The position numbers and the translations under genes are program-made. Positions 48,898-63,167 of a stretch of DNA of 64,000 nucleotides are shown here, piece by piece. Positions within the stretch are counted from its first letter, which is position 1; every line of letters starts with the position of its first letter. The stretch is from Alphaproteobacteria bacterium MarineAlpha5_Bin12 (GTDB lineage Bacteria; Pseudomonadota; Alphaproteobacteria; HIMB59; GCA-002718135): positions 64,230-128,229 of the forward strand of contig PTKS01000005.1 of assembly GCA_002937855.1 (NCBI GenBank), in the 5' to 3' direction. Under the pieces are notes generated by a model. The model was given only the letters and a program-made list of their open reading frames with translations, was not told the DNA's origin and ran no database searches.

Positions 48898-50009
48898 TTT
48901 TTTTGGGGACTTGGTAATTCCAGTTTCTCGACATTTTTTATAGAATTCCCAGCAATACCTTTTAAAGACCCATAAATATTTGACGTACTTTTTATGATCG
49001 TTGTGTGTAGTTTCTCTCTTTTAGACCATTGTGTATTAAAGGATCTTTTTTCAGATTCTAGATCTTCTTGAAGCTTAATGAAGCTATTTACTATTGTCTC
49101 GACTTCATTACGAAATTCATGACTGATTATGTAATTATACATAAGAGAAGTTTTATTGGTTCTGTTTTTTTGAGATCCTATGATATTAGATACCTCGCAC
49201 GTCATAATGCGCAATGAATGAATAAGAAATTTAAATTGTGTAATGTTACATACCCATACGTTTTTTAATTGTTGTCCTGCAAGCAAATTTTTTGGAAGAA
49301 CATCAGTAACTATAACAGCAATCTGACATCCGCTGTTTTTTGCATCTTCCTTAACTTTTTCAATCCAAGAATTTTGAAATTCCTTAGCTCTTTTACTTTC
49401 TATACATATTTTACCAGCTATTTCTCCATTTATCATGACTTCATGCACAACATCAGCACCTCTTGCCCCTTTCTTTATTTCCGTTATGTTATCTTCTGGA
49501 AATTCTTTTCGCATCCATTCTTCAATTTGAATTTCCTGAGCTTCACCCTGAAGTTGCACAGAGCCTTGGCCAGCACGTTTTTGCATTTTTTCTAAATCGG
49601 AGCGTAATTGTTCTATTTTTATAGTTTTCTCTTGTATTAGCGTATCCTTCTTATCGAGCTCTAGTCCCAGTTTATCTTCATATTGCAGAGCAATCTCACT
49701 TTCCATTTCTTTATTTTTTCTCTCCAAAGACTGCATCTTTGTTTTCATTTTATTAAATTCTACTACTTTCTCAGAATAAGTTTTTAATTCTAAGTCCTTT
49801 TGTTTCATTTCTTCTTCATATTCATTAACAATTTTATTTTTCAATTTTTTTTCTGTTTCTTTTCGAGCCTTCTCTCTTTCCTGGTCAATCTTTTTGTCAA
49901 AAGTATGTTGCATTTCCTCTTGATAGGCAGAGGCTATAGCTTTTTTTATATCGACTTTCTCATGACAATGAGGACAGCGAATATGTTGAGTATCTTTATT
50001 TTGTGTCAT
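48894..50009 (-). CDS. DUF2130-type protein: N-terminal Zn-ribbon-like CPHC, long coiled coil, C-terminal PD-(D/E)XK-like domain
   Basis: 371 aa. IRCPHCHEKV, about 130 aa of K/E/Q-rich heptad-like sequence, then SVQLQGEAQE..FPED.ITEIKKGARGADVVHEV....GKICIESKRAKEF. I recognise this as the DUF2130 pattern with a D...E-S-K nuclease-fold motif. Confidence 0.7.
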   Translation of the reverse strand: MTQNKDTQHIRCPHCHEKVDIKKAIASAYQEEMQHTFDKKIDQEREKARKETEKKLKNKIVNEYEEEMKQKDLELKTYSEKVVEFNKMKTKMQSLERKNKEMESEIALQYEDKLGLELDKKDTLIQEKTIKIEQLRSDLEKMQKRAGQGSVQLQGEAQEIQIEEWMRKEFPEDNITEIKKGARGADVVHEVMINGEIAGKICIESKRAKEFQNSWIEKVKEDAKNSGCQIAVIVTDVLPKNLLAGQQLKNVWVCNITQFKFLIHSLRIMTCEVSNIIGSQKNRTNKTSLMYNYIISHEFRNEVETIVNSFIKLQEDLESEKRSFNTQWSKREKLHTTIIKSTSNIYGSLKGIAGNSIKNVEKLELPSPQKK

Positions 50010-50010: not shown

Positions 50011-50115
50011 TTAAAAGAACCATTTCATTAAGAAGTAAATTAAAACAACAAAACCAATGATAGAAATTATAAACGACAATGCACTACCAAAAAGACCAAA
50101 TATGAAGTTTAACAT
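50011..50115 (-). CDS. Unlisted 34-aa single-pass TM peptide (MLNFIFGLFGSALSFIISIIGFVVLIYFLMKWFF)
   Basis: Own translation. Its ATG overlaps the upstream stop as TAATG (50117-50113 on the minus strand). Its TAA stop (50013-50011) sits 1 nt before the DUF2130 ATG (50009). The ORF exactly fills the apparent 105-nt gap. Confidence 0.5.
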   Translation of the reverse strand: MLNFIFGLFGSALSFIISIIGFVVLIYFLMKWFF

Positions 50116-51068
50116 TATAATTCCTCTTGCATTTTTTTAGAGAAACAACTGAAATGAATAATAGTTTCATCTAACATAAGTATTGTGGCACAAATATCTT
50201 TATTATTAATTGTAAATAATTGACCCAGGCCAGAATTTTTACACTGTTTGGCAATAGAATTATTTGCATTAAAAATAATATTATTTGCATCTTTTATTGT
50301 TGGTATTAAATTATCTCTTTTTCTATTTTCCATTTCATCTAATGCATAACTTTTAAGTATTTGTGGATATAGTGATTGGAAAATATTTTTATTTGAAAAT
50401 AATTCAAAACCTAGAATATTTTTACCTATTGCAAAAATAACACCTATTGCATCTTCAGGCATTGTAAGATGCTTAAGATAATTTTCCATTAATAGTTCAT
50501 TATTTTTATAGAGATCTTGCATACTTTCACTTGAAGAGTAAGTATCAAAAGAATTAAATTTTTTATTTATTTGTTCCCATGTTTGTTCCTGATCTGCTGC
50601 TTCATTATAGTTTGAAGAAATATCTTCATCTATATTTTTTTGCATTTTTTCCATTTTTGCAAATCTACCTTTTGCAAACATAGAAGAATTTCGTGAAGCA
50701 AATTGTCTAGATGTTCTACTCCATCTACCTTTTTCACTGCAAAGAACATTTAGTTTCATTTTTGTTATTCCAGGAATAATAGAAGATACTGTTGCAATTC
50801 TATTTTGCTTTAATTCAAAACCAGCTATTGTTTGACCATCAATGATAAAAATTGGAGTAGTATGAAAATTTTCAACCTCAACTTCAGGTACATATCCTTC
50901 ATCACTAATTTCAGTAATTTTTAAATTATTTTCATTTAAAGCTTTTGTAAAATGAGTAATATTTTGTTTAATATTTTCACCTATAATGGGGAAAACACTC
51001 AAGTTTTTATAGGTTTTTAAAGTACCTATTGAAATTTTTTCAAGTGTATTGTTATTTTTTTTCATCAT
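50115..51068 (-). CDS. DUF6569/ARPP-1-like protein, first gene of the minus-strand island operon
   Basis: 317 aa. The N-terminal pattern NLSVFPI...F(T)KALNENNLKITEISDEGYVPEVEVEN....PIFIIDGQTIAGFELKQNR......IP....KLNVLCSEKGRWS matches my memory of this family's conserved core (L.VFPL, V.E.v.N, ll.dGE.l.GakQnR, v.C.E.gRW). Confidence 0.6.
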   Translation of the reverse strand: MMKKNNNTLEKISIGTLKTYKNLSVFPIIGENIKQNITHFTKALNENNLKITEISDEGYVPEVEVENFHTTPIFIIDGQTIAGFELKQNRIATVSSIIPGITKMKLNVLCSEKGRWSRTSRQFASRNSSMFAKGRFAKMEKMQKNIDEDISSNYNEAADQEQTWEQINKKFNSFDTYSSSESMQDLYKNNELLMENYLKHLTMPEDAIGVIFAIGKNILGFELFSNKNIFQSLYPQILKSYALDEMENRKRDNLIPTIKDANNIIFNANNSIAKQCKNSGLGQLFTINNKDICATILMLDETIIHFSCFSKKMQEEL

Positions 51069-51140: not shown

Positions 51141-51165
51141 TTATTATTATTATTATTATTATTAT
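51141..51165. repeat. Perfect trinucleotide microsatellite (TTA/ATT), about 8 units
   Basis: Direct reading: ttattattattattattattattat, ending at the ATG (51164) of the ATPase gene. It lies inside the 95-nt divergent intergenic region. Confidence 0.9.
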
Positions 51166-53416
51166 GATTGAGAAATTTCAAATAAGTAATTTTAAAGGAT
51201 TTAATGAACCTTTATCTTTAGATATTGCACCTATTACACTTATTTTTGGACCTAATAGCGTTGGAAAATCTTCAATTATTGAAGGTTTGCAAATGATAAA
51301 ACACAGTGGTCCAAATGATCTACAAACATATCTAGAAAATAGACTTGATCTTGGAAGACCAGATGAAATTCTCTCCAGGCAAAATAAAAGCATTAATCCA
51401 AACATTACGTATTCATTTTCTTTTAATTATGCAGGTTTGAATAAACCAAAAGGACCACTTCTTAATAATCTTGAAAGTATTGGAATTAAGAAAAATTTTA
51501 ATCTTACAAAAGATAATATTTATGTGAATAATAAAATTTCTATATTATTTAATAAAAGATTATTTTTTTCACTTAAACTGGGATTCAAAACTAACAAACC
51601 TGAGGAGGTTGAAAAATTAAATCAATTAGAGGGTAAAATAGATTTAATTGATTTAGTACAAATTACTGACAGAATTCCAGAAAACGATCCTTTTTGGAGT
51701 ACATCGCAGCAAGCAGTTTTCACTATAGACACAATTAGTGATAATGATGAGTACTGGGATGATATTTTAAATTTTTTAACTAGAAAAAACATAAGTACAG
51801 AAATATCTAATAAAATTGACTTTGTTATTAATGAAAGAAATCAGAATTCAAGATCTAAGGAGATTACAAAAAGTGAATTAGAGACTTTAATCAAACAATA
51901 TAATGAAAATATAAATTTATTAAAAAAAGGAAATAAAGAAATAATAAATTTTATAAATAAAGTGATTATTGAAAAAGAGTTTAAAGATTTACCTTATAAA
52001 AAATATTTATTAAATTATTTAATCAATAATAAAAAATATGTAAAAAGTGATAAAATTATTTCTCTATTAAAAGAAAATGAAGATACAGTTCCTAATTTAA
52101 ATAAAAAAAGTAATCTTTGGGAGATGGTGACAAATGATTATATTGATAATCTAAATTTAATTAATCAAAAGGAAAAAAATGAGAAAGAAATATTAAAATA
52201 TCTAATCGAAGATATTAACAACAAACTTATCGCAGATGTTGGACTTTCATTAATAAGAGGCGTGACAATAAAAGGTGATAAGGAATATAAATTTGACATT
52301 AATGACGAGTTAATCAACGCTCAATTACAAGCTTCTTTAGATGAAGTAAAAAAAAATGTTGAGAAAATAGATGATATTAATTATTCTATTTCAACTGAAA
52401 ATAGTGATACTTTTAAAGATTTTTCTATAAAAAAACTTAGAGACATTAATATTTTAATTAGTGCATGGTCAAGAACATTACAATTAAGTCAAGAATTAGG
52501 TCCTACGGGTAGAAAAGAAATTAAATCTTCAATCATAAAAGATATTAAACGTAATCTTATTATTGAAGTGGAAGTCAAAGGTTCGGAAAAACAGAGAATT
52601 TTTTATTATAGAAAAAAAAATACACTAATTGATCTATTTACATTAGCAATTGAATCAAATAATCGTAAAGTTGATAATCTATTTCCCAATCTAGAAGAAA
52701 TTATTGATCATTGTGATTCTTTGATAGAAGAAAATCTTGGCAATTTTACTTTTGTCCCATGTTTTCGAAGTTATGAGAGAGTTTATAGATCTACAAGAAA
52801 ATCAATATCAGCAAATCTTGACATAAGTACTTCTACTGCAGATCTTGTCGAAACGTTATCAAGAGATAAGGAATTACTAAAAAAACTTAATGATTGGTTA
52901 AAACAATCAACGCTTAATTCTGAAATTGTTATAGAAGAAGGATCAGATTCAAGAATCATGTATGTCATAGAAGGAGAGAATAAAGTTAAAATAAATATTG
53001 CAGATGCTGGCTCAGGTATTCGAAATTTAATTCCTATCATTGCTGTTATCATTAACGCTAACAGAAAAATTCATCCCTATAGACGAAAAGGAATGGAGAC
53101 AAAGCCTATAATTGCCTTAGAAGAACCAGAGGTTAATTTACATCCCAGACTTCAAATTGATTTAGCAAGCTTTGTTGCAAATTTTAGTAATAAAAGAGAT
53201 TTTATTATTGAAACACATAGTGAGCTGATGATGAGAAAAATTCAACAACTTATAAGAGATAAGGAATCAAATCTTACCTATGAAGATGTTAAGGTTTATT
53301 GTGTTAGAAAAAACCAGGAAGGACATTATGTTGATGAAATAAGAATTGATAGCAATGGAAAGTTTCTTGATGAATGGCCTCATGGTTATTTTAATGAAAG
53401 AATTGAACTTCTGTAA
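51164..53416 (+). CDS. ABC/SMC-like (AAA_15/AAA_21-type) ATPase with very long inter-motif insert and DUF3696-like C-terminus
   Basis: The N-terminus FQISNFKGF...LIFGPNSVGKSS (Walker A at about 51248) is typical when translation starts at ATG 51164. Walker B/D-loop IALEEPEVNLHP lies at about 53111, with H-loop ETHS. The tail G.FLDEWPHGYFNER is DUF3696-like. About 610 aa of K/E/N-rich sequence separate Walker A from Walker B. The track start GTG 51119 is probably upstream of the real start. Confidence 0.8.
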   Translation: MIEKFQISNFKGFNEPLSLDIAPITLIFGPNSVGKSSIIEGLQMIKHSGPNDLQTYLENRLDLGRPDEILSRQNKSINPNITYSFSFNYAGLNKPKGPLLNNLESIGIKKNFNLTKDNIYVNNKISILFNKRLFFSLKLGFKTNKPEEVEKLNQLEGKIDLIDLVQITDRIPENDPFWSTSQQAVFTIDTISDNDEYWDDILNFLTRKNISTEISNKIDFVINERNQNSRSKEITKSELETLIKQYNENINLLKKGNKEIINFINKVIIEKEFKDLPYKKYLLNYLINNKKYVKSDKIISLLKENEDTVPNLNKKSNLWEMVTNDYIDNLNLINQKEKNEKEILKYLIEDINNKLIADVGLSLIRGVTIKGDKEYKFDINDELINAQLQASLDEVKKNVEKIDDINYSISTENSDTFKDFSIKKLRDINILISAWSRTLQLSQELGPTGRKEIKSSIIKDIKRNLIIEVEVKGSEKQRIFYYRKKNTLIDLFTLAIESNNRKVDNLFPNLEEIIDHCDSLIEENLGNFTFVPCFRSYERVYRSTRKSISANLDISTSTADLVETLSRDKELLKKLNDWLKQSTLNSEIVIEEGSDSRIMYVIEGENKVKINIADAGSGIRNLIPIIAVIINANRKIHPYRRKGMETKPIIALEEPEVNLHPRLQIDLASFVANFSNKRDFIIETHSELMMRKIQQLIRDKESNLTYEDVKVYCVRKNQEGHYVDEIRIDSNGKFLDEWPHGYFNERIELL

Positions 53417-53418
53417 AG

Positions 53419-54579
53419 ATGATTTATAATTATGCACTTACACATTATTGTTGTGAATCAGCAGTATTTGAGGAAAAAACATTTCAAAACTTAGTTAATC
53501 TTTTCCAAAAAACAAGGGATGAAAATATAATTTTAATTATAGATAAAAACAAATATTTAATTGATTGTTTGTTAAAAGGTTTAAAAAGTTATTATAAAAC
53601 TAGTTCTGATGAATATTCATATTTTACTGAAATTTTATTGACTTTAGATGATAAGAATAAAATTTATAGACATGATTTTATTTATGATGAAAATAATGTA
53701 AAAGAATTTATTGAATCAATTAAGAGTTCAGGAATTATTATAGATGCGATAATTGTAGACAAAGAAGAAGAAAATACATTTAAAAACGCAATACCTATTG
53801 AAAAGTTTTCTCTAGAACATCAAAATGATAAAGAAAGAATTACAGTAAATAAAAATGGTATCAACCTTATAGATCATGAAATCAATTCACTTGATACAAT
53901 TTATCAAAGAATTGTCTGGGATTCTGTTGTTTTTAAGTATTATGATTATAATTTAGGTAATGGAACATTTAAAACTGAAGAAATTCGAAATCTTGATTTA
54001 ATAAAAAACAACTCAGAGAATGAATCTTCCAAATGGAAAATTTTTAATAATGATATTACATCGCACAAATTAAGACAAATTAATAAATTTAAATTAGGAT
54101 TTCAAAATCTTATAAAAGCTATAAAATCCATAAGTAAAAAAATTAAAAAAGAAAAAAATGTCTTAATTGAGGTATTCACACCTCAACCTTTAAAAAATTT
54201 AAAATCACTAAATGCTGAAGATAAAATTAAAAATATGCAACAAAATCTTTTAATGCTTCAGCTTTTAGACGAAAAGATATGTAGCGAGATTCAAGAGGAA
54301 AATATTAGTTTAAAAATTTATTTTTATGACTCTTTATTAGATGGAAAAAGTAAATATGGTAGCGCCGAACATAATCGTCTGTTTTTTTCCTTGTCTTCCA
54401 ATCAAATTGATGTTGCAAAAGGCCTTGATATATATGACTTAAAAACAAAAGAAATTCAGCAAGGAAAATGGCGTTTTTTAGGTTCTAAGGAAGATACACA
54501 ACAGGACATAAGCAACAGAAACCCATTAGATATAAAGAAATACAAAGAAAATATTGAACATTATTTGGGAAATTTATAA
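53419..54579 (+). CDS. Hypothetical protein, tightly coupled partner of the ATPase (no recognisable domain)
   Basis: 386 aa ORF starting 2 nt after the ATPase stop. I found no nuclease, Toprim, HNH, TIR, Sir2 or TM motif. Coding status is supported by length and coupling only. Confidence 0.5.
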   Translation: MIYNYALTHYCCESAVFEEKTFQNLVNLFQKTRDENIILIIDKNKYLIDCLLKGLKSYYKTSSDEYSYFTEILLTLDDKNKIYRHDFIYDENNVKEFIESIKSSGIIIDAIIVDKEEENTFKNAIPIEKFSLEHQNDKERITVNKNGINLIDHEINSLDTIYQRIVWDSVVFKYYDYNLGNGTFKTEEIRNLDLIKNNSENESSKWKIFNNDITSHKLRQINKFKLGFQNLIKAIKSISKKIKKEKNVLIEVFTPQPLKNLKSLNAEDKIKNMQQNLLMLQLLDEKICSEIQEENISLKIYFYDSLLDGKSKYGSAEHNRLFFSLSSNQIDVAKGLDIYDLKTKEIQQGKWRFLGSKEDTQQDISNRNPLDIKKYKENIEHYLGNL

Positions 54580-54585
54580 ATTACA

Positions 54586-54615
54586 CTTGAATCTTAATTA
54601 GTATTTGCTATATTT
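54586..54615 (+). promoter_or_regulatory. Candidate promoter upstream of the sigma gene: CTTGAAT - N16 - TGCTATATT
   Basis: Direct reading. CTTGAA lies at 54586-54591 and TG-C-TATATT at 54606-54614, about 25 nt upstream of ATG 54639. It fits either an extended -10 sigma-70 promoter or a sigma-32-type CTTGAA/CTAT element. Confidence 0.35.
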
Positions 54616-54638
54616 AATTATAGGCAAAGCAGCCTGAA

Positions 54639-55457
54639 ATGTATAATTCAATAGCGGGCCAGCTGCGGGTCCCAGAGCCTCTTAAAGATGAACTTGGAAA
54701 GAAATCCAAGGAACCTCTATTATCATATCAAGAAGAGATCGATTTATTCAATAAATATAGATCTTATAATGATAAAAAAAGTTACGAGAGAATATTTTTT
54801 TCTCATATAAGGCTAGTCAATAAATTTGCTAAATTATTTGCAAAATCTAATCCTGAGCTATTTTATGAATTACAAAGTGAAGGTTTTAAGGGGTTAGCAA
54901 TAGCTATAAAAAAATTTGATATTTCAAAATCTAGACTCTGTACATATGCTTCTTATTGGATCCTTCATTCTATTGATACATTTTTTGTCCAAAATAACTT
55001 TGGTAATATTCATCTAGGAAAAAGCTTTACAGAAAAAAAAGTTTTTTATTTGTTAAAAAAATCTTTTATTGAACCAGATAAAATCAAAGAAGAAGATTTA
55101 ATAAAAATTGCTAAAGAAAATAAATTAAGTGTGGCAAAAATTAAAGATATAGTCGCACTAATTTCATACAATCATTTAAATGCAGAAGATGTATCGGTGA
55201 TTGATGATAGACCTAATCAACTTGATAATATAATTACAAAAGAATCATTTAACATTAATTTAAAAATTTTTAAAAAAAGAGTATCTGAGTTAAACAAGAG
55301 AGATAAAAGAATATTTGAGAAAAAACACTTTTTAAATAAAACATATAAAGAAATAGCCAAAGAAGAGGGTATTTCTTTTCAGCGAGTTAGTCAGATAGAT
55401 AATAGAAGTATTGATAACCTTAAATCACAACTCAAAAACTGTTATGAGGCTGCTTAA
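54639..55457 (+). CDS. Sigma-70 family RNA polymerase sigma factor, divergent RpoH (sigma-32)-like
   Basis: 272 aa, collinear with RpoH. Region 2 is IRLVNKFAK...ELQSEGFKGLAIAIKKFD...YASYWILHSI. An RpoH-box-like segment is GKSFTEKKVFYLLKK. Region 4.2 HTH is TYKEIAKEEGISFQRVSQIDNRSIDNLK. Confidence 0.75.
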   Translation: MYNSIAGQLRVPEPLKDELGKKSKEPLLSYQEEIDLFNKYRSYNDKKSYERIFFSHIRLVNKFAKLFAKSNPELFYELQSEGFKGLAIAIKKFDISKSRLCTYASYWILHSIDTFFVQNNFGNIHLGKSFTEKKVFYLLKKSFIEPDKIKEEDLIKIAKENKLSVAKIKDIVALISYNHLNAEDVSVIDDRPNQLDNIITKESFNINLKIFKKRVSELNKRDKRIFEKKHFLNKTYKEIAKEEGISFQRVSQIDNRSIDNLKSQLKNCYEAA

Positions 55458-55459
55458 TA

Positions 55460-55470: not shown

Positions 55471-55493
55471 TCTATTAAAAAAACGGAAAAAAA

Positions 55494-55865
55494 ATGGATA
55501 ATCAAAACACTACAAATGAATTCAAAATACGAATTCTTATTTTACTTGCCATTGCTGATAAAGACTTTCATAAAGATGAGGATAAGATGATTAAGTCTTT
55601 ACTAAAGAAACGTAATGTTGATATGCAAAATTATGAAACAATTAAAAATGAAATTTTCAATTCAGAAGATAATTTTGATAATTTATGTAGAGATTCTTTA
55701 AAAAAAATTAATAATGAAGATGATCAACAAGATTTATTAAAAATTCTTTTTTTATTATCAATGGCTGATCTAATTCTTCATGAAGATGAACTTCGCTTCA
55801 TTGAGCTTTGTGCTGTTGAATGGGGTATATATGGAAACAATTTAAAAGAAATGATTAATAATTAG
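55494..55865 (+). CDS. TerB-like small helical protein
   Basis: 123 aa. Two repeats of the hydrophobic-ADxxxHxDE pattern (LLAIADKDFHKDEDKMI and LLSMADLILHEDELRFI), as in TerB/DjlA-N type domains. Its stop lies 2 nt before the GHKL gene. Confidence 0.5.
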   Translation: MDNQNTTNEFKIRILILLAIADKDFHKDEDKMIKSLLKKRNVDMQNYETIKNEIFNSEDNFDNLCRDSLKKINNEDDQQDLLKILFLLSMADLILHEDELRFIELCAVEWGIYGNNLKEMINN

Positions 55866-55867
55866 TT

Positions 55868-57178
55868 ATGAATATAGAATTAATTCCTAGACCAAGTAGC
55901 ATGATCATTGCATTGAGATCATTTGGATATACACCTGAATCAGCTATTGCTGATATTATTGATAATTCAATTGCAGCAAATGCAAAAAATATTGATGTTA
56001 CAACATATGATGGCGGGGATAATAAAAATAACAATTATGTTTCAATATGTGATGACGGAAAAGGATTAAATGAAAAAGAATTAATTGAAAAAGCAATGCC
56101 TTGGGGGGCAAAGGATGAGCCAAGAGAATATTGCGATCTTGGAAAATTTGGATTTGGATTGAAATCTGCATCATTATCTCAATGTAAAAAATTAACTGTT
56201 ATTTCAAAAGGAAGTGAAGGAAAAATCAATTTAAAAAAATGGGATGTAGATCATGTTCAAAAAACAGATAAATGGGAAATAACTGATGAAATTACAGATG
56301 ATTTAAAACCACACATAAAAAAAATTGACCATAAACAAACAGGAACTTTAGTCTTGTGGCAAAATTTAGATAAACTTTATGAAGCCGATACTTACAATAA
56401 AAAATTTCAACACAGAATAATGAAGCGTGTCCAAAGGTTAGCTGAAAAACATATATCAATGATTTTTCATAACTTCGCTGATAATATAAATTTTACTTTA
56501 CAAGATGGCAAATTTCCCGTTGTAGCTTGGGACCCTTTTCACACTAATAATATTCAAACAATTGCAACGCCTTTAGAAACATTAGAATACAAAGATAGTA
56601 CAATTTCCATTATGTCTTTTATTCTTCCAGAAGAAAAATTCTTTGAAGATGAACAATATCATGGACCAACAGGTGATTGGAATGACAGACAAGGAATATA
56701 TATTTATAGAAAGGAAAGATTAATTGTGCCAGGAGGATGGCATAACATAGAATTAAGAAATAGACCTATATTAAGAAGAGAAAAATATAACCGTTTAAGA
56801 ATATTAGTTAATTATGATGGCAAAAATGATAATGATTGGAGACTAGATGTTAGAAAAAATAGTGTAATTATTCCTGGAGCTATAAAATACAAACTTAGTC
56901 AAATTGTTGAAGAACAATTAGAAAAATTACAAAAAAAGAATTTTAAATCAACACCCGTTATTAAATCTGGTGAAATTACTCCTTGGCTTATTCGAAATAA
57001 TTATGGAAAATTAAGTGCTAAAATAGACAGGAGCAATTTATTAGTTAAAAAGATTATGGATACTAATAAATTCAATAAAGATGAATTTGAAAATCTTTTA
57101 AAAATTTTAGAAAAAACTATCCCATTAGAAAATATTGATTTTAATAATTCTAGTGAGAAACTAATCCAAGAAAATTAA
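55868..57178 (+). CDS. GHKL (HATPase_c_3, MORC/paraMORC-like) ATPase
   Basis: 436 aa. N-box AIADIIDNSIAANA, G1 box ICDDGKGLNEKEL, G2 box GKFGFGLKSAS. Confidence 0.8.
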   Translation: MNIELIPRPSSMIIALRSFGYTPESAIADIIDNSIAANAKNIDVTTYDGGDNKNNNYVSICDDGKGLNEKELIEKAMPWGAKDEPREYCDLGKFGFGLKSASLSQCKKLTVISKGSEGKINLKKWDVDHVQKTDKWEITDEITDDLKPHIKKIDHKQTGTLVLWQNLDKLYEADTYNKKFQHRIMKRVQRLAEKHISMIFHNFADNINFTLQDGKFPVVAWDPFHTNNIQTIATPLETLEYKDSTISIMSFILPEEKFFEDEQYHGPTGDWNDRQGIYIYRKERLIVPGGWHNIELRNRPILRREKYNRLRILVNYDGKNDNDWRLDVRKNSVIIPGAIKYKLSQIVEEQLEKLQKKNFKSTPVIKSGEITPWLIRNNYGKLSAKIDRSNLLVKKIMDTNKFNKDEFENLLKILEKTIPLENIDFNNSSEKLIQEN

Positions 57179-57195: not shown

Positions 57196-60141
57196 ATGAG
57201 TGCAGATGATTATAGATCAGCAAGACAGGCTATAATAAATATTATTAAACCAGATAATATAGAGGAAAATAAAGTTCCTACTGAGCAAGAAGCTGAAAAA
57301 CTAATTGATCAAACAATTGATAATATTTTCAATTTACAACCTCGATGGAAAGAAACTGTCGATAGAAAAATACTCCTAAAAGATTTGTTGCAACAAATGA
57401 CCGTTTTATTTCCTGATAAAGAAGTTATTTTTAAAAAAAGTGAAGGTAGTGATCATAAAGAATGGTTTGAAGATAAATGGAAAGAAGGTAAAATTAAATG
57501 GAATTATTATAAGAGATACCAAGAATATCTTGAATATTATTCAGACATGCCACCTTTAACAATTTCGAAATTGGATAGATTAACTACTAAAATTATTGAA
57601 CAAATTGAAGATCCAGAAAGAGACGATACATCATGGGATATAAGAGGATCGGTTATAGGTCAGGTTCAATCTGGTAAAACAGCAAACTATATAGGTTTAA
57701 TTAATAAGGCTCTAGATGCTGGCTATAAAAGAATTATTATTTTATGTGGACTTAACAATGACTTGAGATCGCAAACTCAACAAAGAATAGAAGAGGGGGT
57801 TACAGGACGAGCTTATTCTCAATCTGCTGGTTTACAGAACTTTAAAGTAGGGGTTGGTAACATTAATAATTTTTCTGATATTGATGGAAAAGTTCAACTT
57901 TGTACCACAAGGGACGATAACGGTGATTTCAATACAACAAGAGCAAGATCATTTCAACCTTCAGATGACACCCCTGTTATTCTAATAATTAAAAAAAATG
58001 TATCTGTTCTTGAAAACGTTCTTTTGTGGATTCTCAAATATGAAAGCCAAAATACTTGGCATGAAGAAAAAGATCCTTGGGAGTGGAGACAAAGACTAAA
58101 AAAAGATATTGAATCAATTGAAATTGACAATCGCAAAACAAAAGTCCCTCGTGTCAAAAACAGACCTGTTCTTTTGATAGATGATGAATGTGATCAAGCA
58201 TCTATTGATACAAATCTTGATACTGACATGTTACAAGGTGAACCAGATCCTGAACATGACCCAACATTAACGAATAAGTTAATAAGAAGAATTCTTGATG
58301 CTTACGATAAATCTGTTTATGTTGGTTATACAGCTACGCCATATGCCAATGTTTTTATTGATCCAAGACTAAAATCAAAACAAGCTGGAAAGGATATCTT
58401 TCCAGAAGATTTTATAATTAACCTTCCTGCACCAAGTAGTTATATTGGTCCTGCGCAAATTTTTTCAGATATAGAAAAAAAATCTAACGTGATTAATAGT
58501 ATTTCAGATTATTTAGATGAAGGTGAAGATCCAAATGATAGAGCTGCATCAGGATGGATGCCTCCAAGGCATGATATTAATCATATACCACAATATAAAA
58601 ACCAAAATGAATTGCCAACTTCTCTCAAAGAAGCAATAATATCTTTTCTCATATCTTGTGCAGTAAGAAAATTAAGGGGTTATGATAAGGGAAATAGTAT
58701 GCTTGTTCATGTTTCAAGATTTGTATCTGTTTCAGAAAGAGCTGGAAACCAAATTCAAGAATTTATTAATGATCTAGAGTCTATTAATGTAGGAAATTTC
58801 TCTTATGAAAGTTTAATTAAAGAAATTTGGGATTCTAAATTTACTAATCATATAAATGATAATTTTAATTTTGATAAAAACAAAATTAAATTTGATGATG
58901 TTTATTTAATTATTCAGCAATCATTACAAACTAATAAAACTGTAGTAGAACTTGTTAATGGATCTGCTTTAAGCAAAAGTGAATACGACAAATCATTAAA
59001 AGCAAATAAAAATATTATTGCTGTAGGTGGACAAAGATTATCAAGAGGTCTTACGTTGAAGAGCCTTATGATTAGTTATTTTCTAAGAACAGCCAGAAGA
59101 CCACTTACTGATACAATGACACAAATGGGTCGATGGTTTGGATATAGACCTAACTATAGTGATTTGTGTAAACTTTACATAACTGATGAATTAGAGCAAA
59201 ACTTCAGAGACTTTGCGATTGCAGACTATGAGTTTAGAAATAAAATTGAAGAAATGAATGAGCAAGAGAGAACTCCTAAGAATTATCAATTAATGGTGCA
59301 AAGAGATCCAAACTATGCTTTATCTTCAAGAAACAAGCTTCACTATACAAGTGTGGTAAGACTGGATTTTAGTGATTATCATGGACAAACAATTGTTCTC
59401 CATAAGGATAATTCTTCGGAAGCTAAAAATAATAGAGATAGTGTAAGAGATTTAGTTCTCTCTTTAAATAAACCAGATCAAAATAGAGAAAATAAAAATA
59501 ATTGTTATTTATGGAAAAAAACTGAAAGTAAAAAAATTATTAAATTTTTACAGAAATATAAAACACACGAAAATAATACAAAAATTCATACTGAAAGTTT
59601 TATTGATTATATTCAAAGGATGAATAATTATGGTGAGTTAAAATTTTGGTCCGTTGGTATAATTTCCAAGACATCAACTGAAGATAAAGTAAGATTAATA
59701 CATAATGATTTAGTTAACTTTCCTGTTAATTGTATGGAAAGATCACCAAATAAAAAAAATAAAAAAACTGATGATAAAAATACACATACTATAGGAATTT
59801 TGGATCAAGAAATTGATGAATCCTTTGATTTAAATAATGCAGAATATAATGCTGCTATAGAAAAATGGGAATTGGAAGATGGTAGAAGATTAAATAAATC
59901 AAAAAGATTTTATTACAGATGGGCAAGAGGACGTGCATATTTAGATAACTATTATCAAGATATAGAAAACGATAATTATCATAGAGGTCAATTATTAATT
60001 TATCCTATTATAAATCCAAAAGAACCAAAAAAAGATCAATTACCTATGATAGGAATAACTATAACTTTTCCTGGATTAAGTACTAATGATAGCAGAGAAG
60101 TTATTATGTCAAACTTTCAAGCAGAAAGAATACATGAATAA
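57196..60141 (+). CDS. Z1 domain protein (SF2 helicase-like NTPase)
   Basis: 981 aa. Walker A GQVQSGKTANY and Walker B LLIDDECDQAS. The Z1 signature is VGGQRLSRGLTLKSLMISYFLR....DTMTQMGRWFGYRPNYSDLCKLY. Confidence 0.85.
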   Translation: MSADDYRSARQAIINIIKPDNIEENKVPTEQEAEKLIDQTIDNIFNLQPRWKETVDRKILLKDLLQQMTVLFPDKEVIFKKSEGSDHKEWFEDKWKEGKIKWNYYKRYQEYLEYYSDMPPLTISKLDRLTTKIIEQIEDPERDDTSWDIRGSVIGQVQSGKTANYIGLINKALDAGYKRIIILCGLNNDLRSQTQQRIEEGVTGRAYSQSAGLQNFKVGVGNINNFSDIDGKVQLCTTRDDNGDFNTTRARSFQPSDDTPVILIIKKNVSVLENVLLWILKYESQNTWHEEKDPWEWRQRLKKDIESIEIDNRKTKVPRVKNRPVLLIDDECDQASIDTNLDTDMLQGEPDPEHDPTLTNKLIRRILDAYDKSVYVGYTATPYANVFIDPRLKSKQAGKDIFPEDFIINLPAPSSYIGPAQIFSDIEKKSNVINSISDYLDEGEDPNDRAASGWMPPRHDINHIPQYKNQNELPTSLKEAIISFLISCAVRKLRGYDKGNSMLVHVSRFVSVSERAGNQIQEFINDLESINVGNFSYESLIKEIWDSKFTNHINDNFNFDKNKIKFDDVYLIIQQSLQTNKTVVELVNGSALSKSEYDKSLKANKNIIAVGGQRLSRGLTLKSLMISYFLRTARRPLTDTMTQMGRWFGYRPNYSDLCKLYITDELEQNFRDFAIADYEFRNKIEEMNEQERTPKNYQLMVQRDPNYALSSRNKLHYTSVVRLDFSDYHGQTIVLHKDNSSEAKNNRDSVRDLVLSLNKPDQNRENKNNCYLWKKTESKKIIKFLQKYKTHENNTKIHTESFIDYIQRMNNYGELKFWSVGIISKTSTEDKVRLIHNDLVNFPVNCMERSPNKKNKKTDDKNTHTIGILDQEIDESFDLNNAEYNAAIEKWELEDGRRLNKSKRFYYRWARGRAYLDNYYQDIENDNYHRGQLLIYPIINPKEPKKDQLPMIGITITFPGLSTNDSREVIMSNFQAERIHE

Positions 60142-61147
60142 TGAAAGTACTGATATTTTTAAAGATACTTTAGATTCAGTTAAAACTTCTATTAAACAAT
60201 CAGGATTGATAGCTAAACTACTTCCTTTAGAAAATAACAATAGGATATTTGCAGCTTATAAATTACCAGAAAAACAAATTAGCCTTATTGCAGAAGTTCC
60301 AACTAAATTTGTTAAATTTGAAAAGCAATTTGAATCAAAAGGATTCAGCGTTACAAATAAAAAAAAAGATACCAATAATGATGTTACGCAAGTTATTATT
60401 TCTTTGATTGATAATAATTATAAGGATGTTTTTTTTGAAATTACTGAGCTTTTTATTAAAAAAATTAAAAATATAAAAGATGACAGAGATTTTTATAATA
60501 TCCTTATTGAAAGAATAGAAATATATTCAAATTTTTTTGATAAACATTCAAAACAAGGATTACTTATTAATGCACAACAAGGCCTTTATGCTGAATTAGA
60601 TATTATGGAAAATTTTTTCATCAAATATTTTAACATACCTCTTACTCTTGAAATGTGGCAAGCCCCTCAAAGTGGGTTACATGATTTTACTTATAAGGGT
60701 GTTTCTATGGAAGTAAAATCAACTCATAAATTTCCAGCTCAAGACGTAAGTATTTCAAGCGAATTTCAACTAAATGACAAAAGAGTTTCTAATTTATATC
60801 TTGCTGTACTAGAGGTTAAGCGAGGATCAATTGGAGGAGAAAGTATAAGAGAAAAAATTGAAAAAATTAGAGAATTAATTGCGTCTCAAAACTCAGAATT
60901 AAATACTAAATTCAATGATCTTCTTAATAAATATGGTTATTATGATGCTCATTCACACAACTATTATGTAAGTTTTAAAACTAATTTAGTTCATTATTAC
61001 AAAGTTGTGGAAAATTTTCCACGAATACTACCTGACAGAATTTTAGATGGTGTTAAAAGTATTAGATATAAAATAGATTTAAATAAATGTGTAAATTTTA
61101 TCACTGAAGGAAGTTCTATTAAACAAAATTTTAAAGATGTCGTATAA
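60134..61147 (+). CDS. PD-(D/E)XK motif protein (restriction-endonuclease fold)
   Basis: GLHDF...VSMEVKST gives the D...E-x-K motif. The ATG at 60134 overlaps the Z1 stop (ATGAATAA), and the track ORF start at 60086 is an alternative. The position between Z1 and AIPR is as in the known neighbourhood. Confidence 0.7.
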   Translation: MNNESTDIFKDTLDSVKTSIKQSGLIAKLLPLENNNRIFAAYKLPEKQISLIAEVPTKFVKFEKQFESKGFSVTNKKKDTNNDVTQVIISLIDNNYKDVFFEITELFIKKIKNIKDDRDFYNILIERIEIYSNFFDKHSKQGLLINAQQGLYAELDIMENFFIKYFNIPLTLEMWQAPQSGLHDFTYKGVSMEVKSTHKFPAQDVSISSEFQLNDKRVSNLYLAVLEVKRGSIGGESIREKIEKIRELIASQNSELNTKFNDLLNKYGYYDAHSHNYYVSFKTNLVHYYKVVENFPRILPDRILDGVKSIRYKIDLNKCVNFITEGSSIKQNFKDVV

Positions 61148-63167
61148 TCAAGAACTTAAAAATTTTTCTTATAAAATTCATAGTAGTTCAATTGAACTTG
61201 ATACTTTTAAAGAAAATGGATTTTCACATGCTTGTTGTCAAATACTTTCTGATTCAGGAGTTATAGAAAACTATGAAATTTTACATTTTGAAAAAAAAAT
61301 TTACAACACTGAAATTAAAATTAATGGATATGGACTTGATGATGAAAAAGAAAATTTAGATTTATTTGTATGTCATTTTGAAGGATCAATTAATCCAAAA
61401 AAAATTGAATCATCTAAATTAAAAACTGCAGGAAAAAAAATATCCAATTTTTTTAAAGAATCTCTTAAAGGATTATCTAATAATCTTCCAAAGAATTCTG
61501 ATCCTTATTCTGTAGCAAGATTAATTAAAGATATAGAAAAAAAACTTAACAGAGTAAGGATATTTATTTTTACAGATGGAACTAGTGATATTAAAACCAT
61601 TATCACTGATAAAGTTTCGGGTATTGATGTTACTATTGAATTTTTTGATCTTGGAAAATTATATGAATTGTCGGTTCTTGGAAGTGTAACTGATAATATA
61701 AAAGTAAAATTTGATACAAATATAGACAAGATTGAATGTATTAAGTCTTCTACTACACCAAAAGACTTAGAAAGTTATCTTGCTATTATCCCTGGAGAAA
61801 CTTTATATAGACTTTATGAAGCTTGGGGATCTCAATTAATGGAACTAAATGTAAGATCATTTCTTCAATCAACAGGAAAAGTAAATAAAGGTATTAGAAC
61901 AACACTTCTAGAAGAACCAAACATGTTTTTTTCTTACAATAATGGAATAGCTGCAACCGCAGAAAAAATTAAATTTTCAATAGGGGAAGATGGCAGGCAA
62001 TATATAAATGAAATAATTGGATTTCAGATAGTAAATGGAGGGCAAACAACAGCAAGTATTCATAGATCAAAAAAAGTAGATGGTATTGATTTGAGTGAAA
62101 TTTCAGTACCAACAAAAATTTCTGTTATAAAAAAAGAAGATATACGTAAGGTGGTTCCTTTAATTTCTCGTTATTCAAATAGTCAGAATGCTGTTAAACA
62201 ATCTGATTTTCATTCTGATAATGTTTATCACAAAAAAATTGATGAAATAAGTAAAAAAATTTTTATCCCTGGGGAAAGTGGTAGATGGTTTTTTGAAAGA
62301 AAATCTGGTGAATATCAAAATGAAAAATTTCGACATAGTGCTAATTCAGATAGTAAAAATAGATTTAATAAACTCATTCCAACATTTAGAAAAATTTCAA
62401 AGGAAGATTTGGCTAAATACATTAATTGTTGGGAAGGATTGCCTTATGTTGTCTGTACCGGAGTGCAGAAAAATTTTATTCATTTTATGAATAACCATGC
62501 TGTTGAAGCAGTTAAAGAAAAGATAATTGATAATGATTATTTCAAAGATATCATTTCTCAATCAATAATTTTTAGAAGTGTTGAAAAAATAATTAAGTCA
62601 TCTGATGTACCAGCATATAGATCTCAAGTTTGTACTTATACAGTTTCATTACTTTCTAATTTATCTAGAAAAAATTTTAATCTTGCAGCAGTTTGGCAGG
62701 ATCAACAAATTTCTAATGAATTAAATGAAATGTTAATTTTATGGGTTAATAAAGTATATGATAAACTTCGAAAAAGTGCAGACTCTAAAAATAAAAATCC
62801 CTCTGAATGGTTTAAAAAAATGGAATGTTGGAAAGAATTAAAAAATCAAAATTTTTCAATCTCAGGTAATAATGTTCCTATTGAACTAAAAGGTTCAAAA
62901 AAAGTTATTAAAACGAAAAAATTTATTGTTGATGATGATTATAAAGAAAATATGAGAAAATGTAAAAGTGTCTCTCCTAATGGGTGGCTTAAAATAGCTG
63001 AATTCATTCAAGATGATCCTGACTTAAGCAAAGAATTTCATGGCATGTGTTTAACTCTTAAAGATATGGCTAATGATGATTGGTATGAAGACCCAACTCC
63101 TCATATTGCTGAAGAAGCTTCTGCTATAATTGATTTAGCAGTTGATCAAGGTATAATTAGAATTTAA
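61137..63167 (+). CDS. AIPR (abortive infection phage resistance) family protein
   Basis: 676 aa. The core VRSFLQ.TGKVNKGIRTTL...P..FFSYNNGIAATA...IVNGGQTTASI is the AIPR signature. 11-nt overlap with the preceding gene. Confidence 0.85.
   Translation: MSYNQELKNFSYKIHSSSIELDTFKENGFSHACCQILSDSGVIENYEILHFEKKIYNTEIKINGYGLDDEKENLDLFVCHFEGSINPKKIESSKLKTAGKKISNFFKESLKGLSNNLPKNSDPYSVARLIKDIEKKLNRVRIFIFTDGTSDIKTIITDKVSGIDVTIEFFDLGKLYELSVLGSVTDNIKVKFDTNIDKIECIKSSTTPKDLESYLAIIPGETLYRLYEAWGSQLMELNVRSFLQSTGKVNKGIRTTLLEEPNMFFSYNNGIAATAEKIKFSIGEDGRQYINEIIGFQIVNGGQTTASIHRSKKVDGIDLSEISVPTKISVIKKEDIRKVVPLISRYSNSQNAVKQSDFHSDNVYHKKIDEISKKIFIPGESGRWFFERKSGEYQNEKFRHSANSDSKNRFNKLIPTFRKISKEDLAKYINCWEGLPYVVCTGVQKNFIHFMNNHAVEAVKEKIIDNDYFKDIISQSIIFRSVEKIIKSSDVPAYRSQVCTYTVSLLSNLSRKNFNLAAVWQDQQISNELNEMLILWVNKVYDKLRKSADSKNKNPSEWFKKMECWKELKNQNFSISGNNVPIELKGSKKVIKTKKFIVDDDYKENMRKCKSVSPNGWLKIAEFIQDDPDLSKEFHGMCLTLKDMANDDWYEDPTPHIAEEASAIIDLAVDQGIIRI

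What the first reader, a model, noticed from the sequence alone, without database searches (positions are those of the whole stretch)
54639..55457. Divergent RpoH-like sigma factor embedded between defence modules
The protein is collinear with sigma-32, including an RpoH-box-like segment (FTEKKVFYLLKK) and a region 4.2 HTH. Normally invariant stretches are altered, however (ELQSEGFKGLAIAI instead of DLIQEGNIGLMKAV). It sits as a separate unit between the ATPase pair and the TerB-GHKL-Z1-AIPR-Dcm cluster, all on the same strand. An island-borne alternative sigma could act as a dedicated switch for the neighbouring defence genes or be a relic of a mobile element. Alternatively it is the host's heat-shock sigma marooned next to an insertion hot spot.
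Basis: partly seen in the sequence, partly recalled or inferred. Interest (0 to 1): 0.6.

Follow-up and report, generated by a model that had tools for sequence, protein, structure and literature searches.

The report
RpoH-like sigma inside Mza defence cassette
The gene is a real but highly divergent heat-shock-type sigma factor that is a fixed part of a known anti-phage gene cluster (Mza), where it replaces the usual, unrelated sigma protein; it is probably not the cell's own heat-shock regulator.

Summary
The ORF 54639-55457 (+, 272 aa) is real, and the quoted motifs are at residues 77-90 and 130-141. It belongs to the sigma-70 family and is closest to sigma-32, but scores far below the RpoH cut-offs (92 vs 241 bits; 83 vs 323).

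The downstream genes are MzaB, MzaC, MzaD and MzaE of the known Mza anti-phage system. That system's first gene, MzaA, is already known to be a sigma-70-family protein. Canonical MzaA is a 630-750 aa ankyrin-sigma fusion without an RpoH box. Here its position is held by a short RpoH-derived sigma plus a small TerB protein.

Seven lineages with sigma context carry a relative of this sigma (57% down to about 31% identity). In all seven TerB follows it, and in the six with longer contigs it sits in the same cassette.

A canonical RpoH occurs in sister MarineAlpha5 bins, in a housekeeping locus, and in the same metagenomes. The "marooned host rpoH" reading is therefore unlikely.

New here is a position-conserved sigma-70-like promoter before the sigma gene. 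An mRNA stem around its start codon shows compensatory changes.

The function (dedicated transcription switch versus sensor or decoy) is inferred, not shown. Verdict: a new variant of a known kind, of moderate interest.

The parts
54639..55457 (+). RpoH-derived sigma-70-family sigma factor, 272 aa. It is the positional equivalent of MzaA.
   Evidence: The best family is sigma-32, below cut-off. Regions 2.2, 2.3, 2.4 and 4.2 are the most conserved across 8 family members.
54587..54614 (+). Promoter-like site TTGAAT-16-TATATT preceded by TG (extended -10), in front of the sigma gene.
   Evidence: Listed. Generic promoter matches in the region are at chance level (104 vs 101.6). The evidence is therefore positional conservation: (C/G)TTGAAT followed, 15-17 nt later, by a TATATT-like hexamer in all 7 lineages.
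54622..54680 (+). Candidate mRNA stem enclosing the sigma start codon. AGGC (54622-54625) pairs with GCCU (54677-54680). GCAGC (54629-54633) pairs with GCUGC (54662-54666).
   Evidence: RNAalifold. Pair counts: 89.6% of cells paired against 39% or less when slid, 4 pairs and 8 cells with compensatory change, 0/500 shuffles. Single-sequence folds are not unusually stable. No Rfam match.
55494..55865 (+). TerB-domain protein, 123 aa. It always follows the sigma and is candidate partner or regulator of it.
   Evidence: Pfam TerB 29.8 bits. It is present after the sigma in all 7 lineages and overlaps the sigma's 3' end in L027 and in P0009's contig. Alignment A6 shows two conserved D..H..E motifs.
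55868..57178 (+). MzaB (GHKL/MutL-like ATPase).
   Evidence: PADLOC MzaB 170 bits. Pfam HATPase_c_3.
57196..60141 (+). MzaC (helicase-Z1 protein).
   Evidence: PADLOC MzaC 484 bits. Pfam Z1.
60086..61147 (+). MzaD (DUF4420, putative PD-(D/E)XK nuclease).
   Evidence: PADLOC MzaD 57 bits. Pfam DUF4420 190 bits.
61137..63167 (+). MzaE (AIPR protein).
   Evidence: PADLOC MzaE 315 bits. Pfam AIPR and AIPR_N.
63200..64000 (+). Dcm-type cytosine-5 DNA methyltransferase. It runs off the window end.
   Evidence: Translation shows FAGIGG, GFPCPPFS and ENV motifs. Pfam DNA_methylase on the full gene in L003.
51164..53416 (+). AAA_15/AAA_21 ABC-type ATPase (PDC-M55A / NsnB / AriA-like). The likely true start is the ATG at 51164, not the GTG at 51119.
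   Evidence: The conserved N-terminus MIEKFQISNFKG is seen in all lineages.
53419..54579 (+). 386-aa partner of the ATPase. It matches no family.
   Evidence: It is syntenic in all lineages at 27-64% identity.
50115..51068 (-). ARPP-1 domain protein, first gene of the divergent operon.
   Evidence: Pfam ARPP-1 224 bits. Syntenic in all lineages.
50011..50115 (-). Unannotated 34-aa hydrophobic peptide ORF between ARPP-1 and DUF2130.
   Evidence: Translation MLNFIFGLFGSALSFIISIIGFVVLIYFLMKWFF*. It is conserved in 6 lineages.
48894..50009 (-). DUF2130 protein.
   Evidence: Pfam DUF2130 172 bits. It is the most conserved cassette gene, at 59-77% identity.
48586..48897 (-). 103-aa protein, last gene of the divergent operon and left edge of the conserved block.
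   Evidence: Syntenic at 30-49% identity. No Pfam hit.

Best explanation
The ORF encodes a functional alternative sigma factor that descends from the sigma-32 (RpoH) lineage. It has been captured as the first gene of a variant Mza anti-phage cassette: sigma, TerB, MzaB GHKL ATPase, MzaC helicase-Z1, MzaD PD-(D/E)XK, MzaE AIPR and Dcm methyltransferase. It occupies the place that in canonical Mza is held by MzaA, an ankyrin-sigma-70 fusion.

**Shown**
- Family, position and co-inheritance with the cassette in the six lineages with extended context (TerB follows it in all seven).
- The conservation pattern across sigma regions.
- A conserved promoter-like site of its own.
- A covarying mRNA stem around its start codon.

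**Inferred**
- The protein binds host core RNA polymerase. Regions 2.2 and 2.3 and the box-like segment are kept.
- It directs the polymerase to cassette promoters of non-canonical specificity. Region 2.4 reads NNFGN and region 4.2 reads FQRVSQID, where canonical RpoH proteins have (R/A)ERVRQ(I/L)E.
- It thereby acts as the cassette's own expression switch, timing or inducing the potentially self-toxic restriction-like genes.
- The co-translated TerB protein holds or releases it, like an anti-sigma or sensor partner.
- The 5' stem limits its translation until a trigger arrives.
For: **Sigma identity and RpoH affinity**
- Searches give the sigma-70 family assignment with sigma-32 as best match.
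- In the exhaustive search, all 8 non-family hits that were checked (P0011-P0018) score highest on the sigma-32 models, 7 of them above the NF005143 cut-off.
- The RpoH-box-like segment is present here but deleted in canonical MzaA.

**Mza context**
- PADLOC assigns MzaB-E.
- NCBIfam names MzaA as an 'MZA anti-phage system associated sigma-70 family RNA polymerase sigma factor'.
- Canonical loci L011 and L012 have a sigma directly upstream of MzaB.
- The literature states 'mzaA (a sigma factor)' (PMC9523054).

**Co-inheritance**
- The same block is found in the window, L009, L013/L008, L014, L027 and L030; L026 is a shorter fragment of it. The block is h103, DUF2130, ARPP-1 on one strand. On the other strand it is ATPase, partner, sigma, TerB, MzaB-E and Dcm.
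- Sigma identity falls from 57% to 31% across these lineages.
- P0009 is also followed by TerB.
- Flanks outside the block differ from those of the window.

**Rarity**
- Only 4 of 1.84 billion representatives reach E<=1e-30.
- The island proteins are singletons in their 90% clusters, whereas flanking genes have 10-24 variants.

**Function retained**
- Mean pairwise identity by region: 2.3 0.60, 2.2 0.53, 4.2 0.51, 2.4 0.47, against 0.16 for the linker.

**Own regulation**
- Promoter-like site and mRNA stem.

**Not the host RpoH**
- Canonical RpoH P0278 comes from MarineAlpha5_Bin7, Bin8 and one more MAG. It lies in an rluD-like/rpoH/purA/hisS locus.
- P0278 is found in 3 of the same samples as the cassette sigma and is only 29% identical to it.
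- AT-rich canonical RpoHs still pass the sigma-32 cut-off at 301 and 304 bits.

**Tight sigma-TerB coupling**
- The two ORFs overlap in two lineages.
Against: - No experiment or expression data exist for this locus.
- No promoter motif that could be assigned to this sigma was found repeated in the cassette. Generic promoter scans are at chance level.
- The sigma's own promoter looks sigma-70-like and stays the same in L030, whose regions 2.4 and 4.2 differ. The sigma therefore probably does not drive itself.
- Nothing shows that TerB binds the sigma.
- The sigma evolves faster (43-57% identity) than MzaB-E (53-72%). This also fits an arms-race sensor.
- The function of MzaA in canonical Mza was not found described in the searchable literature.
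- A canonical rpoH was shown in sister bins and in the same samples, not on the same genome as the window.
- The AlphaFold model is of only moderate quality (pLDDT 66).
Confidence: 0.6

Rival explanations
1. Sensor or decoy. The sigma-like protein does not mainly direct transcription. It sits on or near RNA polymerase as bait for phage proteins that hijack host sigma factors or core. Its modification or capture, perhaps relayed through TerB, then licenses the MzaBCDE nuclease/ATPase machinery.
For: - It is among the fastest-evolving cassette proteins (43-57% identity against 53-72% for MzaB-E).
- Canonical MzaA carries ankyrin protein-interaction repeats, which suggests protein sensing.
- No cassette promoter motif specific to it was found.
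- TerB is more conserved than the sigma.
Against: - The DNA-recognition segments (region 2.4 NNFGN, region 4.2 QRVSQI) are among the best conserved parts. A pure bait would not need that.
- No known precedent was found in the literature searched.
Confidence: 0.2
2. It is the host's own, fast-evolved heat-shock sigma (the only rpoH), which happens to lie next to an insertion hot spot.
For: - NCBI's pipeline named it RpoH.
- The best family and structure matches are sigma-32.
- SAR11-like genomes have very few sigma factors (own knowledge).
- The region behaves as an assembly break point in several metagenomes.
- A canonical rpoH was not shown on the same genome.
Against: - Scores are about a third of the RpoH cut-offs. 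AT-rich canonical RpoHs still pass them.
- Every relative lies inside the cassette, and none was found elsewhere among 1.84 billion representatives.
- Sister MarineAlpha5 bins have a canonical RpoH in a housekeeping locus. That same protein is in 3 of the samples holding the cassette.
- The position equals that of MzaA in canonical Mza.
Confidence: 0.05
3. Non-functional relic or passenger gene carried along with a mobile element.
For: - Pfam region 2 falls below threshold.
- Normally invariant residues of region 2.2 are altered.
Against: - The reading frame is intact in all 7 lineages down to about 31% identity.
- Conservation is concentrated in the functional sigma regions.
- The promoter and the 5' stem are conserved, with compensatory changes.
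- No relatives occur on viral contigs.
Confidence: 0.05

Closest known systems
MzaA of the MzaABCDE anti-phage system (NCBIfam NF041931; PADLOC PDLC02203). I attribute the system to Gao et al. 2020 from memory and via PMC9523054; that paper could not be read here.
   Same: It is a sigma-70-family protein encoded at the head of mzaBCDE, with a Dcm methyltransferase nearby. Regions 2 and 4 are present.
   Different: Canonical MzaA is 627-750 aa with N-terminal ankyrin repeats, region 1.2 and region 3, and no RpoH box.

The window protein is 272 aa and RpoH-like. It does not hit the PADLOC MzaA model, and NCBIfam MzaA is not among its 25 best families; relatives score 44.5 bits or less against a cut-off of 800. 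A TerB gene lies between it and mzaB.
RpoH / sigma-32 (TIGR02392, NF005143; structure 8hkc_E)
   Same: It has the same length class and is collinear through regions 2.1-4.2. It keeps a box-like segment after region 2.4. RpoH is the best sequence and fold match.
   Different: - Scores are far below cut-off, and identity to the MarineAlpha5 canonical RpoH is 29%.
- Regions 2.2, 2.4 and 4.2 are altered.
- The genomic context is a defence cassette, not the rluD-like/rpoH/purA locus.
ECF sigma DdvS with its anti-sigma DdvA, which control a CBASS/CRISPR-Cas island in Myxococcus (PMC11506125, seen). Also the CalpL-CalpT-CalpS sigma/anti-sigma output of type III CRISPR (own knowledge).
   Same: A dedicated sigma factor with a co-encoded small partner is tied to an immune locus.
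   Different: Those are group 4 (ECF) sigmas with recognisable anti-sigma domains. Here the sigma is group 3 and RpoH-like, and the partner is a TerB-domain protein with no known anti-sigma role.
Controller (C) proteins of restriction-modification systems (own knowledge)
   Same: A system-encoded transcription factor could delay or limit expression of the toxic restriction genes relative to the methyltransferase.
   Different: C proteins are small HTH dimers, not sigma factors. No operator logic was demonstrated here.
E. coli rpoH mRNA thermosensor (own knowledge)
   Same: A base-paired structure involves the translation start region and early coding sequence of a sigma-32-type gene.
   Different: There is no sequence or Rfam relationship. 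The stem is short, with 9-11 pairs. Its stability in single sequences is not exceptional, and its trigger is unknown.

Membership tests
Sigma-70 family | Passes the superfamily HMM and has region 2 and region 4 domains. | tested here: met
   TIGR02937 68.6 bits vs 42.9. Sigma70_r4 28.8 vs 24.1. Sigma70_r2 20.7 vs 24, slightly below. The predicted fold is all-helical and matches sigma chains.
RpoH / sigma-32 | Score at or above the curated cut-off of the RpoH models. | tested here: not met
   NF005143 91.7 vs 241. TIGR02392 83.3 vs 323.1. NF005693 72.3 vs 315. Cassette relatives score 92-126 bits.
RpoH / sigma-32 | RpoH box Q(R/K)(K/R)LFFNLR immediately after region 2.4. | tested here: inconclusive
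   EKKVFYLLK lies at the homologous position, with 3 identical and 4 conservative positions. K133, F136 and L139 are invariant in the family.
RpoH / sigma-32 | Housekeeping genomic position, conserved in relatives independently of accessory genes. | tested here: not met
   All relatives lie in the Mza-type cassette. The canonical RpoH of sister bins sits in an rluD-like/rpoH/purA/hisS locus.
RpoH / sigma-32 | Drives the heat-shock regulon. | not testable with these tools
   This needs expression data or genome-wide promoter analysis of a complete genome.
MzaA (Mza system sigma) | Score at or above the cut-off of NF041931, or a hit to PADLOC PDLC02203. | tested here: not met
   The window protein does not hit PDLC02203, and NF041931 is not among the 25 best NCBIfam families listed for it. 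Relatives reach 18-44.5 bits on NF041931 (cut-off 800) and 31-37.5 bits on PDLC02203. Canonical MzaA scores 243 and 195 bits on PDLC02203.
MzaA (Mza system sigma) | Sigma-family gene at the head of mzaBCDE. | tested here: met
   The sigma is followed by TerB and then MzaB-E, with gaps of 36, 2 and 17 nt and then overlapping ORFs. The layout matches L011 and L012 except for TerB.
MzaA (Mza system sigma) | Ankyrin repeats followed by regions 1.2, 2, 3 and 4. | tested here: not met
   The 272-aa protein has no ankyrin repeats and no region 1.2 hit. Compare for canonical MzaA.
Mza anti-phage system | MzaB, MzaC, MzaD and MzaE present in order. | tested here: met
   PADLOC 170, 484, 57 and 315 bits. 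Identity to plasmid-borne Mza proteins is 24-35%.
Sigma / anti-sigma pair | The co-encoded partner binds and inhibits the sigma. | not testable with these tools
   There is only genetic coupling: TerB is always adjacent and overlaps the sigma gene in two lineages. TerB has no recognised anti-sigma domain.
Known RNA families (Rfam 15) | Covariance-model match for the 5' stem. | tested here: not met
   No match at E<=1 in 47000-64000.

The most novel reading that the evidence does not exclude
An RpoH-derived sigma, its TerB partner and a start-codon-masking mRNA stem together form an infection-sensing module. It replaces the ankyrin-MzaA in SAR11-like bacteria. On phage attack, translation of the sigma is unmasked and/or TerB releases it. 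RNA polymerase is then redirected to switch on the whole conserved super-cassette, or to shut down host and phage transcription. The super-cassette comprises Mza plus the ATPase pair plus the ARPP-1/peptide/DUF2130 operon.
Probability: 0.15. Interest if true: 0.7.

Novelty: new variant of a known kind. Interest (0 to 1): 0.45.

Why it matters
**What MzaA-type sigmas do is unknown.** Mza is a defence system described as validated (PMC9523054), but I found no description of its mechanism in the searchable literature, including what its sigma-family subunit does. This variant shows that the sigma slot can be filled by an unrelated sigma lineage: RpoH-type plus TerB instead of an ankyrin-sigma-70 fusion. 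That suggests the sigma activity itself is what the system needs, not a particular protein.

**It gives a small test case.** The variant offers a compact, separable sigma/partner pair for experiments.

**Annotation is misleading.** PGAP calls the protein RpoH, and the PADLOC MzaA model does not detect it. Genome surveys could therefore overcount heat-shock sigmas and miss the MzaA-position gene of such Mza systems.

**It bears on SAR11-like biology.** From my own knowledge, streamlined SAR11-like genomes have very few sigma factors and few defence systems. A third, island-borne sigma in such a genome is therefore notable.

Tried and rejected
**1. Regulon motif search.**
- Scanning the cassettes of 5 lineages for the CTTGAAT-type site found only the position-conserved one before the sigma.
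- The generic promoter scan is at chance level, 104 against 101.6.
- The intergenic footprints are described under item 7 of the full report. They could not be tied to this sigma.

**2. Empty-site test for the island.** Four related contigs with flanks at least 90% identical all end inside DUF2130 or the 2OG gene. Neither presence nor absence could be shown.

**3. Finding a canonical rpoH in the very same genome.** Only sister bins and the same samples could be shown.

**4. TerB hidden in canonical MzaA.** No similarity was found, and Pfam shows ankyrin repeats instead.

**5. Phage origin.** No relatives were found in IMG/VR.

**6. Rfam.** Nothing matched.

**7. Single-sequence RNA folding.** Z-scores ran from -1.4 to +1.3, so this gives no independent support for the stem.

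**8. Literature.**
- Gao et al. 2020 (PMC7985843) is not held.
- The PADLOC paper does not mention Mza.
- No mechanistic paper on MzaA was found.
- The ARPP-1 / DUF2130 search returned only unrelated ARPP-16/19 papers.

**9. An early assumption corrected.** I first took GCA_002719835.1 to be MarineAlpha5_Bin12. That 17-kb contig is deposited under 'Candidatus Neomarinimicrobiota bacterium'. The Bin12 protein is PPR41267.1.
Full report
**1.

- The ORF at 54639-55457 (+) starts with ATG and encodes 272 aa.
- The protein passes the sigma-70 superfamily model (TIGR02937, 68.6 vs 42.9 bits) and Pfam Sigma70_r4. Region 2 is just below threshold.
- Its best full-length matches are the sigma-32 models, at about a third of their cut-offs: 91.7 vs 241, 83.3 vs 323 and 72.3 vs 315.
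- A family profile finds E. coli sigma-32 (8hkc_E) as the best solved structure, at 94 bits over residues 17-285, ahead of RpoS at 68 bits.
- An AlphaFold model of moderate quality (pLDDT 66, all-helical) also matches 8hkc_E best.
- An alignment with canonical RpoHs shows collinearity through regions 2.1-2.4, a degenerate RpoH-box-like segment and region 4.2. It agrees with the 8hkc_E sequence printed.

**2. What the neighbours are**

- PADLOC identifies the four genes after TerB as MzaB (170 bits), MzaC (484), MzaD (57) and MzaE (315). A Dcm methyltransferase follows.
- NCBIfam holds a model named 'MZA anti-phage system associated sigma-70 family RNA polymerase sigma factor MzaA' (NF041931).
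- PMC9523054 states 'mzaA (a sigma factor)' and cites Gao et al. 2020 for the system.
- On alphaproteobacterial plasmids (L011 Neorhizobium, L012 Thalassospira) a 'sigma-70 family RNA polymerase sigma factor' of 627 or 750 aa lies directly upstream of MzaB-C-D-E. Dcm, Vsr and a restriction endonuclease are nearby.

**3. How this sigma differs from MzaA**

- Canonical MzaA has N-terminal ankyrin repeats, then regions 1.2, 2, 3 and 4. It scores 243 and 195 bits on the PADLOC MzaA model.
- The window protein gets no hit on that model. Its relatives get 31-37.5 bits there and 18-44.5 bits on NF041931, whose cut-off is 800.
- BLASTP against L012 MzaA aligns only regions 2.2-2.3.
- In alignment A3, canonical MzaA has a deletion exactly where RpoH and the window family have the box segment.
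- The exhaustive profile search of 1.84 billion representatives returned 21,955 hits at E<=0.001, but only four at E<=1e-30. After that comes a plateau near 120 bits. All eight plateau hits tested (P0011-P0018) score best on the sigma-32 models, and seven pass the NF005143 cut-off.
- The family is thus a rare, fast-evolving offshoot of the RpoH lineage, not of MzaA. A TerB-domain gene is interposed before mzaB, and canonical MzaA contains no TerB.

**4. Co-inheritance with the cassette**

Context was recovered for every relative found.

| Lineage | Sigma identity to the window | Notes |
|---|---|---|
| L009/L025 | 57% | |
| L013 | 46% | L008 is a frameshift-ridden long-read copy of the same lineage |
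| L014 = L007 | 43% | |
| L026 | 43% | fragment |
| L027 (protein P0010) | 35% | |
| L030 (protein P0052) | 31% | |
| P0009 | 39% | 1.4-kb contig on which TerB follows the sigma |

- All longer loci share one collinear block. On one strand: h103, DUF2130, a 34-aa peptide and ARPP-1. On the other: ATPase, partner, sigma, TerB, MzaB-C-D-E, sometimes Vsr or EcoRII-C, and Dcm.
- Genes outside the block are not shared with the window.
- Within the block, the sigma, the ATPase and its partner evolve fastest (43-57% identity in the closer lineages) and MzaB-E evolve more slowly (53-72%).
- Within the sigma, conservation is concentrated where a working sigma needs it:

| Sigma region | Mean pairwise identity |
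|---|---|
| 2.3 | 0.60 |
| 2.2 | 0.53 |
| Box-like segment | 0.51 |
| 4.2 | 0.51 |
| 2.4 | 0.47 |
| 3 | 0.31 |
| Linker | 0.16 |

- The melting aromatics Y103, Y106 and W107 are kept. Region 4.2 reads ISFQRVSQID where canonical RpoH proteins have IS(R/A)ERVRQ(I/L)E. That argues for an altered but conserved -35 specificity (inference).
- No relatives occur on viral contigs.

**5. Not the host's heat-shock sigma, with one gap**

- Window housekeeping proteins (PheT, ThrC) cluster at 90% identity or more with a 'Pelagibacteraceae bacterium' MAG, so the host is SAR11-like.
- Flanking genes have 10-24 sequence variants in their 90% clusters. The sigma, TerB and MzaC are singletons.
- A profile of AT-rich canonical RpoHs retrieved P0278. 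It is annotated RpoH in MarineAlpha5_Bin8, Bin7 and a third MAG.
- P0278 lies in a pseudouridine-synthase/rpoH/purA/hisS locus. It occurs in three of the same samples as the cassette sigma: ERZ2782926, JGI 3300020473 and ERZ976275. It is 29% identical to the window protein.
- AT-rich canonical RpoHs still pass the sigma-32 cut-off at 301 and 304 bits. Base composition therefore does not explain the divergence.
- The gap: a canonical rpoH was not shown on the same genome as the window. The window itself holds no other sigma.

**6. New features around the gene**

- In the 59-nt gap before the sigma, all seven lineages keep (C/G)TTGAAT followed, 15-17 nt later, by a TATATT-like hexamer (CATATT in L030). 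In the window this is TTGAAT-16-TATATT at 54587-54614, preceded by TG.
- The site looks sigma-70-like. It is unchanged in L030, whose sigma has different regions 2.4 and 4.2. It is therefore probably read by a host sigma (inference).
- Just downstream, the 5' leader AGGC..GCAGC (54622-54633) pairs with GCUGC..GCCU in codons 8-14 (54662-54680) and encloses the start codon.
- The pairing is maintained by compensatory changes:
  - AGAC/GUCU in L014, L026 and L030.
  - GGAGC/GCUCC in L027, through a synonymous Leu codon.
  - AGAGC/GCUCU in L030.
- On seven sequences, 89.6% of cells pair, against 39% or less for slid controls. Four pairs and eight cells show double changes, and 0 of 500 shuffles reach this.
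- The coding arm uses G+C-rich codons (CTG, CGG, GTC) where the surrounding DNA is about 26% G+C.
- Caveats: only seven sequences, single-sequence folds are not unusually stable, and there is no Rfam match. A predicted start site about 7 nt after the -10 would put the stem at the very 5' end of the transcript (inference).

**7. What could not be established**

- No promoter motif attributable to this sigma recurs in the cassette.
- The ARPP-1/ATPase intergenic region holds conserved blocks. One is the palindrome TTCTA-N4-TAGAA (51114-51127) in four lineages, absent from L027 and L030, whose sigmas have different region 4.2 sequences. This is anecdotal.
- After the sigma stop codon a TGnTATAT element is conserved before TerB.
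- Attempts to find an island-free allele failed. Related contigs end inside DUF2130 or the 2OG gene. That fits a hypervariable region but proves nothing.

**8. Interpretation**

- Most likely, this is the sigma subunit of a variant Mza system, recruited from the RpoH lineage and paired with TerB. It probably acts as the cassette's own transcription switch.
- The identity and context part of that statement is well supported. The mechanism is inferred.
- The main rival is a sensor or decoy role on RNA polymerase. Fast evolution and the ankyrin domain of canonical MzaA support it. Conservation of the DNA-reading helices argues against it.
- Dedicated sigma and partner pairs controlling immune loci are known for ECF sigmas (DdvS/DdvA, PMC11506125). 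CalpS/CalpT is a second example, from my own knowledge.

**9. Verdict**

- This is a new variant of a known kind.
- The finding is real and biologically coherent, but its headline ('sigma factor next to defence genes') is already a described feature of Mza.
- The variant architecture, the mis-annotation as RpoH, the conserved super-cassette and the covarying leader stem give it moderate interest.

Noticed in passing
window 50011-50115 (-): An unannotated 34-aa hydrophobic peptide ORF (MLNFIFGLFGSALSFIISIIGFVVLIYFLMKWFF) lies between ARPP-1 and DUF2130. Its ATG overlaps the ARPP-1 stop codon. It is conserved in six lineages.
   Followed up: partly
window 48586-64000; L009, L013, L014, L027, L030: Three modules stay collinear with the Mza part in the six lineages with extended context, down to about 30% protein identity: ARPP-1/peptide/DUF2130/103-aa, the ATPase+partner pair, and sigma-TerB-MzaBCDE-Dcm. 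Canonical plasmid Mza loci have none of the first two modules. These may form one functional super-cassette.
   Followed up: partly
window 51114-51127: The palindrome TTCTA-GTGG-TAGAA sits in the divergent ARPP-1/ATPase intergenic region. It lies at fixed spacing from an AACAAT block. It is conserved in four lineages and absent in L027 and L030. It could be an operator overlapping a leftward -35.
   Followed up: partly
window 51119-51163: The listed GTG start of the ATPase ORF gives a poly-Ile N-terminus read from a run of about eight ATT repeats. The conserved start is the ATG at 51164. The ATT run is longer in the window than in the other lineages, so it is a possible variable simple repeat in the 5' leader.
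   Followed up: no
L037, L039, L040 (ends inside DUF2130); L041 (end inside the 2OG gene); L003-L005 (starts inside DUF2130): Independent metagenome assemblies break at the left edge of the cassette, mostly inside DUF2130. This suggests strain-level heterogeneity or a hypervariable region boundary there.
   Followed up: partly
window 55440-55457 and homologues: The sigma ends in Y-x-A-A (window, L013/L008, L014, L026) but not in L009, L027 or L030. The end resembles an ssrA-like C-terminal 'AA' degron. This is pure speculation.
   Followed up: no
window 55458-55493 and homologues: A conserved TGnTATAT (extended -10-like) element lies immediately after the sigma stop codon, 20-25 nt before the TerB start, in five lineages.
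   Followed up: no
L027 6480-7142: In the most divergent full cassette of the core family, an extra 220-aa ORF sits between TerB and MzaB. In the same locus TerB (GTG start) overlaps the end of the sigma gene.
   Followed up: no
L002 (GCA_002719835.1, PBEW01000049.1): The same island proteins are deposited under two taxonomies. One is 'Alphaproteobacteria bacterium MarineAlpha5_Bin12' (PPR accessions). The other is 'Candidatus Neomarinimicrobiota bacterium' (MBI accessions). The 17-kb island contig was probably mis-binned in one MAG.
   Followed up: partly
L007/L014 18574-20876; L009 16411-17810; L013 18554-20755: The end of the cassette varies between lineages: Dcm alone in the window, Vsr+Dcm in L009, EcoRII-C+Dcm in L014, and Vsr+EcoRII-C+Dcm in L013/L008. 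A SIR2 gene follows in L007.
   Followed up: no
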